64,000 nucleotides of DNA from NCBI GenBank assembly GCA_951406725.2, contig OX597818.1, positions 38,564,001 through 38,628,000 on the forward strand, given 5' to 3'. Made by a program: the position numbers. Position 1 is the first letter of the stretch. Every line of letters starts with the position of its first letter. This DNA comes from Octopus vulgaris (taxonomy: Eukaryota). Positions 1,657 to 20,000 of this stretch are shown piece after piece.

Positions 1657-4600
1657 ATATATGCATTTTCTAAGAAATATATTTCTATTTCTATCTATTG
1701 TGATTATTTTCATAACCAGAATCATGATAATTATGCAAAGAAAATTTTTTTGCTTGTTCATTTCGTAATGAAAAAATTCCTCTTATACTTCTTTTACTTG
1801 TAGAATTGGAATCCAAATGTATTCCCTCTGAATTTCTTGGAAGTGCAATTTTAACATCTTTGCTAATTGCTTTTATATTTCTTCTGGTAATATTATTTGA
1901 TTCAGGAATAGTTTTTAATATGTAGACATTTGTAGTCTTTGGTTCAATTTTGTTAGTATGTTTTAAACCGAGGGAATTCAAAATTTTCGATTTATTTTCA
2001 AGATTAAGTAATGACTTTAATGTAGAATTATATTTAACAGGAGGATTACTCAATAACGTTTTATCTTGGTTGTAGTTTCTATACGGGTTATAAGACACTT
2101 TACCTCTTTTGGTCGTATATATCTGGTTTGCACCAATTGATACTGTTCCTGAAATACGAGTTTCATATCCTGATGGTGGCTGCTGATAAAGATAATGTAG
2201 TCCTGGTTCTACTATGTAAGGTCCATCTCTAGTAACTGGCCTTTCAAAATTCATTACTGGTATTTGTTGAAGTATGTAAGGTCTAGGTTGTTGTATACTA
2301 AAAGGCACAGAGGGATTGTAAAGTATTGGTGATAACTTTCTAAAACCTTCAAATGGTACATTTTTTCCAGCATAATGATACAAAAGGTTATGTTGAAGCA
2401 ATTGTAGCAGTTTGTTTGGTAATCTAGAATAACTTTTACCATTTTGTCTTAGTGTGTAAAACTTGTATTCAGTGGAAGGTGTAGTATATCCATTATTTGG
2501 CATTGCATATACATTTGACTTTATACCAATATTTGTATTTGGTATTTTGTTTCTGTCTTGAGAGTGTGACATTTCTGAATTAGTTATTGTTTGTAGATGA
2601 GATGTGTCTTTCTTTGAAAGTGTTCTAAAGTCATTATCAAGCATCTGTACATGAGATTTATAACCAGAAAATGGAAGTGTTAAACTTCCTTTTGGCTCAT
2701 GACTCGATTGCTTAAATGCTGGAATTACTGAATTGATTAAATTAGGTATGTTGTTTCTCAGAGCTTTTGGTTTTTTAAGAGGTGCAGATGCGGAGGCATA
2801 ATTGTGAAAAAGAGATCTTTTAATGATGTTCTCCCTCCTTTGTTGGGTTGATGATTGTTTTAAACTCTTTGGATTCTCGGAATTATTTTGGTAGTTTGAA
2901 GACATTTGAACCTTTTGCATAAATATACCGTTCACTGGTACTGCCAAGTTATCTGAAGGAAAATGAAATAATGACTTTATCCAATAATGATAAAAGATAT
3001 ATAAGTTAATAAAAATTCAGAAAAACTACATGTATTTCTAAGGAAACCAAAATATGAGTTTCTTGTGCTAGTTTACTAAATACAAAGTGAAGCATTGAAA
3101 ATCTTGCCAAAGCCAGAGCCAGATACAATATTTTATTTCTTTGACTAATTTAACCAAAATATTGGCTTGAATCTGTTTACATTTTTGGACTGGTATCTTA
3201 TCATCTAGTTTTAATTTAATCTTTATTTTAAAATATTTATTCCAATAATCCATTTACAAATATCTATATTTCTAATTCATGCGACTATGAAAAAATGAAT
3301 GTTAAAACCAAAATAAAAAAAAAAACCCATTCCTTTTATGTGTGACATTCTCAGGAGATAAATTAACTAATTTTCCTTTAGGATCGAAGTGGTCAAGATA
3401 CATATATTCACCTGGGTAGTATGTTAGTCTATCACAATTTTTACTTATTTGAAGGTATCAATACCACCATGACCGATATCAAATCTACAGTGGAGAAGGC
3501 TAGCCACTGGATTTGGTTAAAAAGAGACGATGAGTGATGGCTAGAAGGATATTGAGCTTTATTTGATAACCAGCTGATCTAGCAAGTGGGGCTTCATATC
3601 AGTGAGAGGGGTCGGTGCGCATTGATGCTGTTGAGAGGTAGGCCCCAAAACGGTGTGCATTCTCTCCTGATGACCCCATACACTTGCTGGCTTCCGGTAT
3701 GCGGAGTTTTTGACTGGTAGCACTTGCATGTGCAAGTTGTTTGCAAGACATACAAGCTGACACATTTGCTAATTGTTCACTACTTCTATTGCCAAATAAC
3801 ATTCCGATATATTTTCACATATTGCCAGTTTTACGCTTAGGTGCATTGGACCAAGAAGAGTTAAAAATCGTTGTCAGGGACATGGGGCTGCATAAGTGGC
3901 AAAATGGATATAAACTTTTAAACTAGAAGGCAGTCAGCCCTGTCAATACAACCAATTGCGACTCTCCCACAGATGAAGCAAATAGGTTATTAAGAAGGTT
4001 TAATAAGTTCATTTAGCAAGTATTTTGTGGCTGGATACTCACTTTTTCTAATGCTTTATCTTAAAGTATGATATACATATGTGTATATATATATATATCT
4101 ACATTCCAGTCAGGAGATTTAAGGCAAGCAGAATAATATATATTATCCAAGAATATGATGTAATACTGGTGACTGAGACTGAAGCCTTCACCTCTTCAGT
4201 AATATTCTGGTCTGTTGAGTTAGCAGCTAATGGAATAAAGAAAACAAATTCTAATTATATACAATCTGTAGATTGTAGTAGCAAAGCTTATTTTTAAAAT
4301 CTCAGGATATGGATGCATTCAAACAAGAGTTGATGTAAACTTCTGATTGGCTCAGTCTATAAGGCAGCTTCAGTTCTTTGTTGCATCACTAATGTCTCAT
4401 TCCAGAATGGAAAACAGACATAAAATGATGGTGTTTTATTTCTAATGCCTTTAAGAAAGAAATGAGCATCATTAACATCTTAATAATAATAATGAAATTA
4501 TTGTATACGGTGCTCAGGTGCACTGCATCTTGTTCCTGCTCTTTAATATGCATATGAAACCTTGTACTTATGAAAGAAACTACTTCTTCCCAATGATTTA

Positions 4601-5406
4601 TTAATTGACTAGCAATGCACCTTGGCATTGCCTGGGTGTTATGACCTACAACCACGTTGAATTATTTGTTCCTTTCTTATGGGCAGTATCAGCACACAAG
4701 GAGTATGAAGCAAACAACTCTTCTGTATAAACATGTTTTTCAGTCATTTTCTGATGAATAATGCTGCAGTTTCTGTCTACCAAATTCAGTCACAAGTCTG
4801 TGGTTGGCCTATGGCTATAGTAGAAAACACTTGCCCAAGGTACCATGCAAAGGGACTGAACATGGAACCATGTGGTTGGGAAGCAAACTGCTCAAACACA
4901 CAATCATTCTTGCACCTAATATGTGTGTGTTTACATTTGTTGGTAAATCGCATATTGTGTCCCATCATGCCTCAAAGTTAGCAGTTCATCAAGCAGAGAT
5001 CTATAAAATAAATGCCAGATTGAAATATGTACTGAGGTCAGTATGATCAATTAAATTTTGAAGGTGATACCTGATCATGGCGACAGTTGAAAGACTAAAC
5101 CCAGTAAAATAATGTTTAAAGACTTTATGGCTTCAAATTTAAGGTAATGGATTACTAACCACAAGATAATGAGTTCAAATCTTTGTATTGAACTTCCATT
5201 CTATATGATAACAATATATGTACATCTCAGTCTACTTGACTTCCAAGAATGAACAATTCAAATTTGAAGTTGAATAGGTTGCAGTAAGAAAGCTGTCCAG
5301 ATTTCTCAAAAAATTATTGTGCAAAATATTCTGAGAAAAAGTATTTTTTTCACCACAACAAAACACACACACACACACACACACACAGACACAGATACAG
5401 ACACAG

Positions 5407-5469
<63 letters not shown>

Positions 5470-17063: not shown

Positions 17064-17096
<33 letters not shown>

Positions 17097-20000
17097 CATA
17101 CACACACACACACACACACTCATACACGCACACACACACACACATATACGATGGGCTTCTTTCAGTTTCCGTCTACTAAATCCACTTACAAGGCTTTGGT
17201 TGGCCTGAGTCTACAGAAGAAGACATTTGCCTAAGGTACTATGCAAGGGACTGAACCCCAAAACCATGTAGTTGGGAAGCAAGCTTCTTACCATAAAGCC
17301 ACACCTGAGCCTAATGTGCACACACACACACACATATATATATAGTATATATATATGTGTGTGTATGTATGTATGTGTGTGTGTGTCTTAATATCACTTG
17401 GTAGTTGTAAACAAGCATCCTTATTGTTGTTGTTTGTTTCCTGTTTTCCATGAAAAACATGTCTGACTACGGGAAAATATTGCCTCACGTGGAAGCAGGT
17501 GAGGGTTGGAAACAGGAAGGGCATCTGGCCATAGAATATCTGCCTCAAAAAATTCCCTCTGATATTGCAAGCATGGAAAAGTGGATGTCAAATGAAGGTG
17601 AAGATGATGATGATCTGTATGGTCAACTTACAAACTTTTACGCAGTGTCTGAGAATATATTACACTATTTAAGTTAGGAAAGCCTACAGATTATAGATTT
17701 TAGCTAAGAATGCAGAAAGAAAGAATAGATGGTGTGTAGAATTTAAACGATATTGTTACTATATTTCAATCTCAAAAGGCAATTAATATTAGAAAATAGT
17801 AGAGTTGATAGAGTATAAATTTATAAATGAGAAGAGTAGTACTACAAATTCAAAAAATTCTGTGAAACCAAATTGGTATTTGCATTGGTTGAGCAAAGGT
17901 ATATACATTAGATATTAAAGCCAATATAAGAATAGTAAAAATTAAATTGAATTTTAACAATAAAAACATTTTTATCATTGTTCTAATGTTTTATTTCATT
18001 TGAATGTAAAATATTTTGAAGTAAAATCATTTATAGTAAAATAAAATATTTACTGTAGAGCAAAATTTTCTGAGGTAATATATACAGAGAGCAAAACGCC
18101 CCCAACCCCGTCCAATAGACGGTGCTGAGTTGTCAAGCACTGAAACCAAATTTTCTCAAAACAACTTGTCCGACCGTCCCATAGGCCTCCCCTTTGAGAA
18201 ACACTGATTTAACCTAAATTTGAGACACCAGCAAAAGAAGAAATATAGACTTTTTTTCTATTCCAAAGGAAAACGATTTTATTCACACAAATATGCAACC
18301 GAAGAGTTTAAAGTACCAGTAATGATAAGGCTGTTGATGAGGAGAACACAAACATGGTTTAAACAGTAAGCTTGGCAGGAAAGAAATGTGCCTTTAAGCA
18401 CTACGAAAACAACAAAAAATGGAAGGTGCAGTTATGTACATGTTGATGGAAGAAAAGCAAGACAAAAACGATGCATGCAAATGGGTTAGCTGGAGGTAAA
18501 TCTAGATGGAAAATCGATCGCAACAGCTGATGTACTTGCACGTACAAATGCACGTTTCCACGGCTTTATCAATTGCATTCTCACCTGGAATTGATTTTTG
18601 TAATTTTTTTCAAGAGTTATACACACCCTGATACTGTCGGTATCTACATATCAAATTTGAGCGCAATCGGATGGAGGATGCCCGAGATCCTAGAAGACAC
18701 ACGCACAGACAGACAGAATGGATTTTATATAATAGATATAGAAAAAGCATTTTCATGATACTTACAAGATGTTGCTAAATTTATTTGGAGAAAAATTCCA
18801 AGAAACAGAACAATTTGCTTCATGATTCTGAAAAATGAATAATTTATTATTTTGTTTTTGTAAATGGCTTTCAAGATTCTTGATATGAATTCTTGTGTTG
18901 AAACATATTTTCATATCTCAGGTGGATAATTATGCCAATAGTAAACACAAACACTGATTCTATTCATTTCTTTAATCATTATTAGTCAACTAGCTAACAT
19001 TTAACCAATTAAGTAATCAACTGTTTGACTAATCATTTAGCTAATTAATTGACTGAAAGATTAATCAAACAATCGATTAGTTAGTTGGTTACATGTTAAC
19101 CAATTGACAAGTGATAATTATAGAGATAAAACAGAGTAAGGCATATGTATGTTATTAGCATAACAACCCTCTTGTAATACAACAAAATCATTTATTGAAG
19201 TAGTTTATTCTATAAGTTTCATATTACCATTACACACATTTTAAAAAGATATATCATGGCACCCATGCCAACCTCCCTTCATGGGACACTAAACTCTGCT
19301 TGGCACCCATGCCAACCTCCCTTCATTGGACACTAAACTCTGCTTGCGAAGACCTGTTCGGGCAAGTGAAATCGAAATTGAACCAAATTCGATGACTGGC
19401 ACCCGTGCCAGTGGAGCGTTAACAGCTCCATCTGAGCAGGATCACTGCCAGAACAGCTGTCTGGCTTCCGTGCTGGTGGGCATGTAAAAAGCACCATTTG
19501 AGCGTGATGGTTACCAGCGTCGCCTTACTGGTACTTGTGGTGGTGGCACATGAAAAAACATTCAAGCGAGGTCGTTGCCAGTGCTGCTGGACTGGCTCCT
19601 GTGCAGGTGGCACATAAAAAGCACCATTTGAGCGAGGCCATTGCCAGTACTGCCTGACTGGCCCTCATGCAGGTGGCACGTAAAAGCACCCACTATACTC
19701 TCGGAGTGGTTGGCGTTAGGAAGGGCATCCAGCTGTATAAACTCTGCCAGATCAGATTGGAGCCTGGTGTAGCCATCTGGTTCACCAGACCTCAGTCAAA
19801 TCGACCAACCCATGCTAGCATGGAAAGCAGACATTAAACAATGATGATGAAGATGATGATTCTATAAGTTTCATATTACCATTACACACATTTTAAAAAG
19901 ATATATGGAATTATGAAATTGAATTCCATAACTTTCCTTCTGCATGGAATATATTTTACTAAGTATAATTTGTTGCAAATCAACATAATTATCAACCATA

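What the first reader, a model, noticed from the sequence alone, without database searches (positions are those of the whole stretch)
1691..18823. Uncharacterised ~2955-aa secreted block-copolymer-like protein
Seen: three phase-1-compatible exons give a signal peptide, a basic N-terminal region, a Met-rich octamer block, a hydrophilic spacer, a ~1300-aa Gly/Gln/Thr/Leu/Pro octamer block and a basic Tyr-containing tail. I find only one Cys and no globular domain I recognise. It lacks reflectin, suckerin and collagen signatures. Inference: a lineage-specific structural biomaterial, such as egg cement or stalk, spermatophore, sucker cuticle or mucus.
Basis: partly seen in the sequence, partly recalled or inferred. 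Interest (0 to 1): 0.8.

Follow-up and report, generated by a model that had tools for sequence, protein, structure and literature searches.

The report
Giant secreted octamer-repeat orphan protein gene
This is a real, intact gene for a very large, strongly basic, probably secreted protein made mostly of about 220 copies of an eight-residue repeat; it has no known family, it looks like a rubber-like or gel-forming material protein, and its tissue and function remain untested.

Summary
A 2575-codon stop-free frame lies on the minus strand at 7835-15562. The next longest frames in the window are 554 aa or less and come from repeats. Consensus splice sites, all in phase 1, link a 19-residue signal-peptide exon (18823-18766), a 7548-nt exon (15540-7993) and a 419-codon last exon (2952-1691). 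Added up without joining, that is 2955 aa. Both repeat blocks are variants of one octamer, P-G-x-x-Q-x-h-h (PGMLQNGM and PGTGQGVL). Gln is the residue best kept at an 8-residue spacing. In the 934-aa decayed part the frame has 0 stops, against 20-97 in the other five frames and about 26 in a neutral simulation. Every domain is basic and there is one Cys. Pfam, PDB, two Atlas searches and a scan of 1.84 billion proteins found no family. The only relative is one unnamed 385-aa record, 69% identical to exon 3. My best reading is a secreted, mostly disordered, elastomer- or gel-forming matrix protein, cross-linked through Gln, Lys, Tyr or Met. Transcription, splicing, tissue, organism and mechanism are all untested. 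It is a new variant of a known kind, of moderate interest.

The parts
18766..18823 (-). Exon 1 of the coding model: ATG plus 19 codons (MKQIVLFLGIFLQINLATS) plus 1 nt, then donor GTAAGT. It reads as a signal peptide: Lys in the n-region, a hydrophobic core, and Ala at -3 and Ser at -1. An acceptor-like ttttcAG lies 4 nt before the ATG, so a non-coding upstream exon may exist.
   Evidence: sequence; of 5 phase-1 ATG..|GTRAG candidates in 15541-40000 (-), this is the nearest and by far the most hydrophobic (best 9-residue Kyte-Doolittle mean 3.31; next 2.0). No SignalP run was possible.
15541..18765 (-). Intron 1 (3225 nt), containing microsatellites
14339..15540 (-). Start of exon 2: basic, Lys/Glu/Leu-rich N-terminal region (exon-2 residues 1-400). 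pI 10.2, net charge +34, no Cys. A weak octamer pattern appears from about residue 290. There is one R-Q-R-R site at residues 259-262.
   Evidence: No Pfam family. 0 hits among 1.84 billion representatives.
12923..14338 (-). Met-rich octamer block (exon-2 residues 401-872), consensus P-G-M-L-Q-N-G-M. Met 16.3%, Gly 15.9%, Gln 12.3%, Pro 11.0%. A 144-nt (6-octamer) super-repeat occurs 8.3 times at 93% matches.
   Evidence: (53 of 54 slots with Gln at position 5); 26 M-x-x-M motifs, against a shuffle mean of 12.3 and maximum of 22.
12449..12922 (-). Hydrophilic, non-repetitive Lys/Asn/Glu-rich spacer (exon-2 residues 873-1030). GRAVY -0.82, pI 9.6.
   Evidence: No stops, against 3-14 in the other five frames. 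No Pfam family.
11171..12448 (-). Core of the Gly/Gln/Thr block (exon-2 residues 1031-1456), consensus P-G-T-G-Q-G-V-L alternating with L-G-T-G-Q-G-V-I (16-aa, 48-nt super-unit at 84% matches). Gly 25.8%.
   Evidence: (48 of 50 slots with Gln at position 5). AlphaFold2 single-sequence model of residues 1201-1400: all-beta, pLDDT 74.7. I treat this model as unreliable.
8369..11170 (-). Decayed continuation of the same octamer array (exon-2 residues 1457-2390). The pattern P-G-(T/N)-x-Q-x-(I/M/V)-L persists with a few register shifts. It holds the only Cys.
   Evidence: 83 of 116 slots; 0 stops against 20-97 in the other five frames; neutral simulation mean 26.5, minimum 12; same residue 8 positions on for Gln 0.63, Leu 0.54, Pro 0.46, against backgrounds of 0.09-0.12.
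7993..8368 (-). End of exon 2: basic non-repeat segment (exon-2 residues 2391-2515), ending at donor C|GTAAGT. Past the donor the frame runs on into an (AC)/(ATAC) microsatellite.
2953..7992 (-). Intron 2 (5040 nt). It contains a purine-rich (minus strand) low-complexity array at about 6510-7530.
1691..2952 (-). Exon 3: basic tail rich in Asn, Ser, Lys and Tyr (419 codons plus stop TAG at 1693-1691). pI 10.1, 24 Tyr, 0 Cys. The stretch best conserved with the relative is about residues 201-240.
   Evidence: One relative, P0003: 69% identity over 94% of the query. AlphaFold2 with the 2-row alignment gives pLDDT 33.7.
1330..1335 (-). Candidate polyadenylation signal AATAAA, about 355 nt after the stop
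   Evidence: Read; not tested

Best explanation
This is an intact, selectively maintained gene with a narrow known range. It encodes a protein of about 2955 aa that enters the secretory pathway and acts outside the cell as a polymeric matrix or material protein.

About 1800 residues are one diverged array of the octamer P-G-x-x-Q-x-h-h (h = hydrophobic). Each unit has a Pro-Gly turn site, one near-invariant Gln and a two-residue hydrophobic patch, and almost no charge. This is the sequence style of disordered, coacervating elastomer or gel proteins such as the hPGhGG style of tropoelastin. I infer that the array forms a hydrated, flexible, self-associating chain.

The Lys-rich N-terminal region, the spacer, and the Lys- and Tyr-rich tail would supply cross-link and adhesion sites. 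Candidates are Gln-Lys isopeptide bonds made by a transglutaminase, Tyr-based cross-links, or Met-Lys sulfilimine bonds. The overall positive charge (about +133) would bind the protein to anionic partners.

Shown: the open frame, the repeat architecture, selection against stops, the composition, and the absence of known domains.

Inferred: splicing, secretion, disorder, network formation and cross-link chemistry.
For: Gene reality:
- A 2575-codon frame; the next longest frames are 554 aa or less and derive from repeats.
- Non-repeat parts: log10 P = -18 for exon 2 and -11 for exon 3.
- The decayed repeats have 0 stops against a simulated mean of 26.5.
- Exon 3 is kept as an open frame at 69% identity in another record.

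Secretion:
- The only strongly hydrophobic phase-1 start exon among 5 candidates in 24.5 kb upstream.
- It has the n/h/c layout and small residues at -3 and -1.

Material-protein style:
- 83 Pro-Gly pairs in exon 2 and 19 matches to h-P-G-h-G.
- The repeat blocks are nearly uncharged and moderately hydrophobic, GRAVY -0.05 to -0.34.
- One Cys in the whole protein, and no fold found for the tail (pLDDT 33.7).
- Tropoelastin is described as a disordered protein built on hPGhGG repeats, with PG pairs as transient beta-turn sites and assembly by coacervation (PMC12554196, passages).

Cross-link candidates:
- Gln is the residue most often repeated 8 positions on: 0.95, 0.85 and 0.63 in the three parts.
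- Lys is concentrated in the flanks: 40 in the first 400 residues, 15 in the spacer, 36 in exon 3.
- Gln-rich, domain-less, disordered secreted proteins are transglutaminase substrates in mosquito and mammalian semen coagulation (PMC2785878, passages).
- Met-Lys sulfilimine and dityrosine links have been proposed for the Met-rich mollusc elastomer abductin (PMC9999432, section 3.2.5-3.2.6 passages).
Against: - There is no transcript, junction, tissue or peptide evidence of any kind.
- The exon 1 - exon 2 and exon 2 - exon 3 links rest on consensus sites and phase only. Exon 3 could belong to a separate transcript.
- No signal-peptide predictor was run.
- Pro + Gly content (27% in the Met block, 31% in the Gly/Gln core) is well below that of elastin or abductin. 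I did not test it against the published Pro/Gly threshold.
- AlphaFold2 modelled 200 residues of the core as an ordered all-beta structure (pLDDT 74.7, pTM 0.68). If that were true it would contradict a disordered elastomer.
- Codon-position divergence in the decayed repeats is 0.29, 0.38 and 0.33 for positions 1, 2 and 3. It shows no third-position excess, so most repeat positions are only weakly constrained at the amino-acid level.
- No transglutaminase, peroxidase or other partner gene lies in the window.
Confidence: 0.5

Rival explanations
1. The Gly/Gln/Thr core is not disordered. It folds into a long beta-solenoid rod with about 16 residues per turn: two short strands (G-V-I-L and G-V-L-P) joined by G-T-G-Q turns, with ladders of Thr and Gln along one face. 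That would give a stiff fibrous or surface-binding protein.
For: The AlphaFold2 single-sequence model of exon-2 residues 1201-1400 is all-beta with mean pLDDT 74.7 and pTM 0.68, and reaches 81-86 in the most regular part. The weak fold matches are nearly all beta-helix proteins such as pectate lyases, tapirins, ice-binding proteins and tail fibres. The 16-aa super-unit has only one Pro.
Against: 0 of 27 listed fold matches reach E <= 0.001; the best is E = 1.5 with TM 0.18. [quoted passage not shown] No second predictor was available. The decayed two-thirds of the array has register shifts.
Confidence: 0.12
2. The Met block is the functional heart. It would be an extracellular Cu(I)-binding (or Ag(I)-binding) or methionine-oxidation-sensitive module that gels or cross-links the protein on metal binding or under oxidants.
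For: Met is 16.3% of 472 residues. There are 26 M-x-x-M and 6 M-x-M motifs, against a shuffle mean of 12.3 and maximum of 22 for M-x-x-M. Met-rich motifs of cephalopod reflectins are reported to bind Cu(I), like the Mets motifs of Ctr transporters, and to gel on binding (bioRxiv 10.1101/2025.08.12.669908, abstract and passages).
Against: The reflectin and Ctr motif cited there is MDM, and this protein has 0 MDM and 0 MD. His and Cys co-ligands are nearly absent. The excess of M-x-x-M follows automatically from the repeat unit. The larger Gly/Gln block has only about 4% Met. Nothing here was tested at the bench.
Confidence: 0.1
3. The spliced model is wrong. The long frame is translated without the signal-peptide exon, from the first in-frame Met after the acceptor, and/or exon 3 belongs to another transcript. 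The product would then be an intracellular low-complexity protein.
For: No transcript evidence exists. Exon 1 is only 58 nt and was chosen by eye. The related record P0003 starts at a Met that aligns with residue 11 of exon 3. That is what a gene caller would produce from a separate gene, or equally from genomic DNA with an intron upstream.
Against: Exon 1 is the nearest candidate and the only strongly hydrophobic one of 5. All four splice sites match consensus and all junctions are phase 1. Exon 3 shares the basic, Asn/Ser/Lys-rich character of the last 125 residues of exon 2. Past the exon-2 donor the frame runs into a microsatellite.
Confidence: 0.15
4. The region is a non-functional relic: a coding-like satellite or pseudogene that is never expressed.
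For: Repeat arrays with a period divisible by three keep frames open by themselves. Antisense frames of 554, 464 and 422 aa occur in the same arrays. Only one relative was found in very large protein sets.
Against: Only the minus-strand frame crosses the 687 non-repeat codons (0 stops against 1-44 per part in the other frames). The 934-aa decayed array has 0 stops against 20-97 in the other frames. Splice sites are intact, and exon 3 is conserved as an open frame.
Confidence: 0.05

Closest known systems
Tropoelastin (vertebrate elastin precursor)
   Same: Both are secreted proteins in which low-complexity hydrophobic Pro-Gly/Gly-rich repeat domains alternate with Lys-bearing regions, with very few Cys. 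The unit L-P-G-T-G-Q-G-V resembles the hPGhGG style, in which PG pairs form transient turns (PMC12554196 passages; 19 h-P-G-h-G matches).
   Different: There is no sequence relationship. The period here is 8 residues, not 5-6. There is a near-invariant Gln, plus polar Asn and Thr. There are no KAAK/KAAAK cross-link motifs (0) and no VPGVG (0). Gly + Pro content is much lower. The protein is strongly basic throughout and about four times longer.
Abductin (bivalve hinge-ligament elastomer)
   Same: Both are Met- and Gly-rich tandem-repeat secreted proteins, and abductin comes from a mollusc. In abductin, Lys and Tyr outside the repeats are the proposed cross-link sites (PMC9999432 section 3.2.5).
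   Different: The abductin repeat is the decamer GGFGGMGGGX, with 58 mol% Gly and 1 mol% Pro, and the mature protein is 116 aa. Here there are 0 GGFGGMGGG and 0 GGM. The Met block has 15.9% Gly and 11.0% Pro.
Transglutaminase substrates: Anopheles Plugin, semenogelins and seminal vesicle proteins, involucrin, SPRR/cornifin
   Same: These are Gln-rich, domain-less, disordered secreted or structural proteins whose Gln residues are cross-linked to Lys (Plugin has 134 Gln in 557 residues; PMC2785878 passages). From recall, SPRR proteins also have an octapeptide repeat.
   Different: The Pfam Cornifin match is E = 0.64 at 10.7 bits against a cut-off of 34.8, so this is not a member. Gln is 10.6% here, against 24% in Plugin. 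No transglutaminase is linked to this gene by any evidence. The involucrin and SPRR details are recalled, not tested.
Cereal prolamins: HMW glutenin (PGQGQQ) and omega-gliadin/C-hordein (octapeptide PQQPFPQQ). Recalled; no paper was read for this.
   Same: Long arrays of short Pro/Gly/Gln repeats form turn-rich, hydrogen-bonded elastic networks. One of these families has an 8-residue period.
   Different: 0 PGQGQQ and 0 PQQPFPQQ. Those are plant storage proteins and are unrelated. Gln content here is much lower and hydrophobic residue pairs are present.
Reflectins, suckerins and octovafibrin (known cephalopod material proteins)
   Same: Reflectins are Met-rich. All three are repetitive material proteins confined to certain lineages.
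   Different: 0 MDM (the reflectin-defining tripeptide; for the definition, for the count). 0 GGY and 0 GGLY, with His 1.3% and Ala 2.9% (the suckerin motifs are recalled). Octovafibrin is 29 disulfide-rich EGF repeats, whereas this protein has one Cys.

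Membership tests
Reflectin | Repeated ~25-aa motifs with conserved MDM tripeptides (definition from bioRxiv 10.1101/2025.08.12.669908) | tested here: not met
   0 MDM and 0 MD in exon 2 and exon 3. The Met block has only 2 Asp in 472 residues.
Suckerin | Alternating Ala/His-rich and Gly/Tyr/Leu-rich (GGY, GGLY) modules (recalled definition) | tested here: not met
   0 GGY and 0 GGLY. In exon 2, His is 1.3%, Ala 2.9% and Tyr 1.1%.
Collagen | Long runs of G-x-y triplets (Pfam PF01391) | tested here: not met
   No run of even 5 consecutive G-x-y triplets. 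No Pfam collagen match at E <= 1.
Gel-forming or tethered mucins | Pro/Thr/Ser-rich domains plus Cys-rich VWD, CysD or CTCK domains | tested here: not met
   Ser+Thr+Pro is 17-24% per region and there are only 3 runs of three or more Ser/Thr in exon 2. One Cys in all. No Pfam domain.
Abductin | GGFGGMGGGX decamer; about 58 mol% Gly and 1 mol% Pro (PMC9999432) | tested here: not met
   0 GGFGGMGGG and 0 GGM. The Met block has 15.9% Gly and 11.0% Pro.
Tropoelastin | hPGhGG/VPGVG hydrophobic domains alternating with KA or KP cross-linking domains | tested here: not met
   0 VPGVG and 0 KAAK/KAAAK, but 19 h-P-G-h-G matches. The likeness is one of style only. No sequence match in PDB or Pfam.
Cornifin/SPRR (PF02389) | Pfam model at or above its gathering score | tested here: not met
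   E = 0.64, 10.7 bits against a cut-off of 34.8.
Secreted protein (classical signal peptide) | N-terminal n/h/c regions with small residues at -3 and -1 | tested here: inconclusive
   By eye: MK / QIVLFLGIFLQI / NLATS with Ala at -3 and Ser at -1. It has the highest hydrophobicity of 5 candidate start exons. No dedicated predictor was available, and the splice to exon 2 is unverified.
Transglutaminase substrate | Reactive Gln (and Lys) cross-linked by a transglutaminase | not testable with these tools
   Only the regular Gln spacing and the Lys-rich flanks are shown.
Beta-solenoid repeat proteins | A stable coiled beta fold supported by independent methods or by solved homologues | tested here: inconclusive
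   AlphaFold2 gives pLDDT 74.7 and an all-beta model, but 0 of 27 fold matches reach E <= 0.001. A known AlphaFold2 artefact produces such models for repeats.

The most novel reading that the evidence does not exclude
The gene encodes a previously undescribed class of animal elastomer or hydrogel protein. It would be a block copolymer of about 220 P-G-x-x-Q-x-h-h octamers. Its Met-rich block would act as a switchable cross-linking module, driven by Cu(I) binding, methionine oxidation or Met-Lys sulfilimine bonds. Its invariant Gln ladder would be stitched to the Lys-rich ends by a transglutaminase. If so, it would be the main component of a still-unassigned soft material of the animal, such as a spermatophore membrane, egg coat, cuticular lining or non-fibrillin elastic tissue.
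Probability: 0.12. Interest if true: 0.8.

Novelty: new variant of a known kind. Interest (0 to 1): 0.45.

Why it matters
If the protein is expressed as modelled, it adds a new sequence design to the short list of natural elastomer and gel proteins: an 8-residue Pro-Gly/Gln/hydrophobic unit in Met-rich and Gly/Thr-rich versions within one polycationic, Cys-free chain. Such designs are used directly in protein-based materials. It would also be an example of a giant gene with a narrow known range that grew by repeat amplification. The recently homogenised arrays (93% and 84% matches) sit beside an old, decayed array that is still kept open. The finding does not bear on a long-standing open question, and without tissue data its biological role stays open.

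Tried and rejected
Searches that found no family or relative:
- Pfam on exon 2, exon 3 and sub-domains: two sub-threshold chance hits only (Herpes_UL33 E = 0.1, Cornifin E = 0.64).
- Exon 3 against proteins of 735-2095 aa: none of 4434 candidates.
- Exon-2 residues 1-470 against proteins of 1383-4402 aa: none of 3111 candidates.
- The same 470 residues by phmmer against 1.84 billion representatives: 0 hits.
- ESM Atlas on exon 3 and on the decayed array: best scores 0.76 and 0.77, within the range that shuffled sequences reach.
- PDB by sequence: exon 2 gave 3 hits at E <= 1, the best being a PAAR protein at E = 0.0034 over the Met/Gly-rich end of the Met block. I read these as compositional. 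One of the three is an engineered XTEN polypeptide. The exon-3 profile gave 0 hits.
- Full-text search for four peptide strings of the repeats: 0 papers. Nothing in print matches within that library, and supplements are closed.
- tblastn of all seven domain pieces against the window: 0 of 50 HSPs lie outside the exons, so there is no paralogue here.
- Rfam and tRNA scans of the window: nothing.

Ideas considered and rejected:
- Neuropeptide or peptide-precursor reading. The only regular basic residues are single Arg or Lys followed by Pro, and there is just one R-x-[KR]-R site.
- The poly-Glu frame at 6543-7037 in intron 2 as an extra exon. It lies inside a purine-rich array with no pyrimidine tract and has frequent stops around it.
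- Octopus arterial elastomer. The only text I could find lists octopus aorta among fibrillin-rich structures (PMC13563585 passage). The original composition papers were not in the library, so this stays untested.

Not done:
- The three exons were never joined for a search or a fold.
- The genome-contig collection holds bacteria and archaea only and was not scanned.
- No eukaryotic genome or transcript collection was available. Orthologues, expression and the organism therefore stayed unchecked.

Full report
**What is there.** On the minus strand a stop-free frame of 2575 codons runs from 15562 to 7835. It is the longest frame in the window by far. The next longest are 554, 464 and 422 aa antisense frames inside the same repeat arrays, the 441-aa frame of exon 3, and 388 aa or less in an intronic TCC array.

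The window has no N. Outside the gene, stops occur at 0.058 per codon. The 687 non-repeat codons of exon 2 therefore have log10 P = -18 of being open by chance, and exon 3 has -11. Mononucleotide shuffles of the three non-repeat parts never gave fewer than 3 stops.

**Gene model.**
- Exon 1 (18823-18766): ATG, then MKQIVLFLGIFLQINLATS plus one base, then GTAAGT.
- Exon 2 (15540-7993): begins after ttccAG and ends at C|GTAAGT. Beyond the donor the frame continues only through an AC/ATAC microsatellite.
- Exon 3 (2952-1691): begins after a pyrimidine tract and cAG, and ends at TAG 1693-1691.

All junctions are phase 1, and the lengths add to 2955 aa. I searched and folded the exons one by one. 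The joined protein was never built or submitted, so no result here speaks for the spliced product as a whole.

I scanned 24.5 kb upstream of exon 2 for phase-1 ATG..|GTRAG mini-exons and found 5. An acceptor-like ttttcAG lies 4 nt before the ATG, which suggests an untranslated exon further upstream. An AATAAA lies about 355 nt past the stop. Splicing, and the link of exon 3 to exon 2 in particular, remain inference.

**Repeat anatomy.** Identity between residues 8 apart rises from about 0.1 to 0.5-0.7 over exon-2 residues ~400-872, and to 0.2-0.66 over ~1031-2390.

Written in register, the blocks read P-G-M-L-Q-N-G-M and P-G-T-G-Q-G-V-L, the latter alternating with L-G-T-G-Q-G-V-I. They are two versions of one unit, P-G-x-x-Q-x-h-h. 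Gln sits at position 5 in the following shares of octamer slots:
- Met block: 53 of 54.
- Gly/Gln core: 48 of 50.
- Decayed continuation: 83 of 116.

A measure that needs no register shows the same thing. In the decayed part, Gln (0.63), Leu (0.54) and Pro (0.46) recur at +8 far above their background of 0.09-0.12.

At DNA level the Met block is a 144-nt super-repeat (8.3 copies, 93% matches) and the core is a 48-nt repeat (21 copies, 84%). These arrays were homogenised recently, so their copy numbers depend on assembly quality.

The decayed 934-aa part is old. Mean site divergence from its consensus is 0.33, yet it has 0 stops, against 20-97 in the other five frames. A neutral simulation over the 83 anchored units gave a mean of 26.5 stops and a minimum of 12. 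Divergence is similar at all three codon positions. Selection therefore keeps the frame and a few positions, not the full sequence.

**Composition.** Every domain is basic (pI 9.6-11.8). The net charge sums to about +133. There is one Cys, at exon-2 residue 2019. Lys is concentrated in the N-terminal region, the spacer and exon 3. Exon 3 carries 24 Tyr. The repeat blocks are almost uncharged, with GRAVY from -0.34 to -0.05.

**Relatives and families.** Pfam gives nothing above its cut-offs. PDB sequence searches give only compositional hits.

Exon 3 has one relative, P0003. It is 385 aa, comes from an unnamed source, and shows 69% identity over 94% of the query. Identity is most even over residues 41-120 and 201-240. 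It starts at a Met aligned with exon-3 residue 11, as a gene caller would produce from genomic DNA with an intron upstream.

Searches for longer proteins and for relatives of the N-terminal 470 residues found none, including a full HMMER pass over 1.84 billion representatives. The Atlas gave only sub-threshold look-alikes. The window holds no paralogue.

No eukaryotic genome or transcript collection was open to me.

**Structure.** Exon 3, folded with its one relative, gives pLDDT 33.7. That is compatible with disorder, but the alignment is too shallow to prove it.

The 200 most regular residues of the Gly/Gln core fold in AlphaFold2 as an all-beta repeat structure with pLDDT 74.7 and pTM 0.68. 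Its fold matches are all beta-helix proteins, but 0 of 27 reach E <= 0.001. AlphaFold2 is documented to give confident, unrealistic beta-solenoids for near-perfect repeats (PMC11795689, abstract and outline). I therefore keep the solenoid as a rival and not as evidence.

**How it most likely works.** The unit combines a Pro-Gly turn site, Gly-flanked polar residues and a hydrophobic pair, with almost no charge. This is the style of disordered, coacervating elastic proteins. Tropoelastin is built on hPGhGG, with PG pairs as transient turns (PMC12554196 passages). The mollusc elastomer abductin is Gly- and Met-rich (PMC9999432 passages).

The flanks carry Lys and Tyr, which are the usual cross-link residues. 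The one residue kept in every unit is Gln, the acyl donor for transglutaminases. Those enzymes cross-link Gln-rich, domain-less secreted proteins such as Anopheles Plugin (PMC2785878 passages).

I therefore read the product as a secreted, polycationic matrix protein that self-associates through its repeats and is fixed by covalent cross-links. Which cross-link chemistry is used, and in which tissue, is open.

A role as the load-bearing egg-tether fibre is unlikely if the animal is an octopus, because octovafibrin is the only detectable protein of those fibres (PMC10336842 abstract).

A metal- or redox-responsive role for the Met block is a bolder option. It is prompted by reported Cu(I) binding of Met motifs in reflectins, but the defining MDM motif is absent here.

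**Verdict.** The interpretation as a structural biomaterial is reasonable but untested. The family is new and the kind is familiar.

Noticed in passing
window 6510-7530 (intron 2): A purine-rich (minus strand) / TCC-rich (plus strand) low-complexity array about 1 kb long. It includes a 36-nt tandem repeat (7.3 copies, 90% matches) that reads as a 164-aa poly-Glu frame (SGKEDEEEEEEE units) on the gene's strand. It also gives 388-aa and 362-aa Ser/Leu/Pro-type frames on the other strand. I judged it intronic simple sequence rather than an exon, but the periods (36, 63, 99 nt) are all multiples of three.
   Followed up: partly
window 18824-18830: An acceptor-like ttttcAG ends 4 nt before the start ATG.
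   Followed up: no
window 14755-14766 (exon-2 residues 259-262): A single R-Q-R-R site, resembling a proprotein-convertase motif, lies just before the point where the octamer-like pattern begins. About 0.5 such sites are expected by chance in a protein of this size and composition (my own rough estimate, not a tool result), so it may mean nothing.
   Followed up: no
window about 1341-1418: A long, near-perfect inverted repeat (hairpin-forming palindrome) lies in the presumed 3' UTR, just before the AATAAA. It may be a small foldback or MITE-like element.
   Followed up: no
window 28400-28798 (+): A fragment of a mariner/Mos1-type transposase: Pfam HTH_48, E = 1e-09, 38.8 bits against a cut-off of 24.1. 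The frame is short, so the element is probably decayed.
   Followed up: partly
window 35895-36299, 47082-47423, 50679-51047; also 19257-19690 and 20932-20984: The same short interspersed sequence recurs on both strands. Its translated frames share strings such as '...LQSDLAVFLQLDALPNANHSVSVVGAFYVPPA...', and one copy holds a 68-nt tandem repeat at 36059-36237. This is likely a SINE-like repeat family. The rest of 19-64 kb shows no convincing gene.
   Followed up: no
window 25347-25897 and 23660-24045: Tandem arrays with long units: 184 nt x 3.0 copies at 87% matches, and 176 nt x about 2 copies at 80-84%. Their nature is unknown.
   Followed up: no
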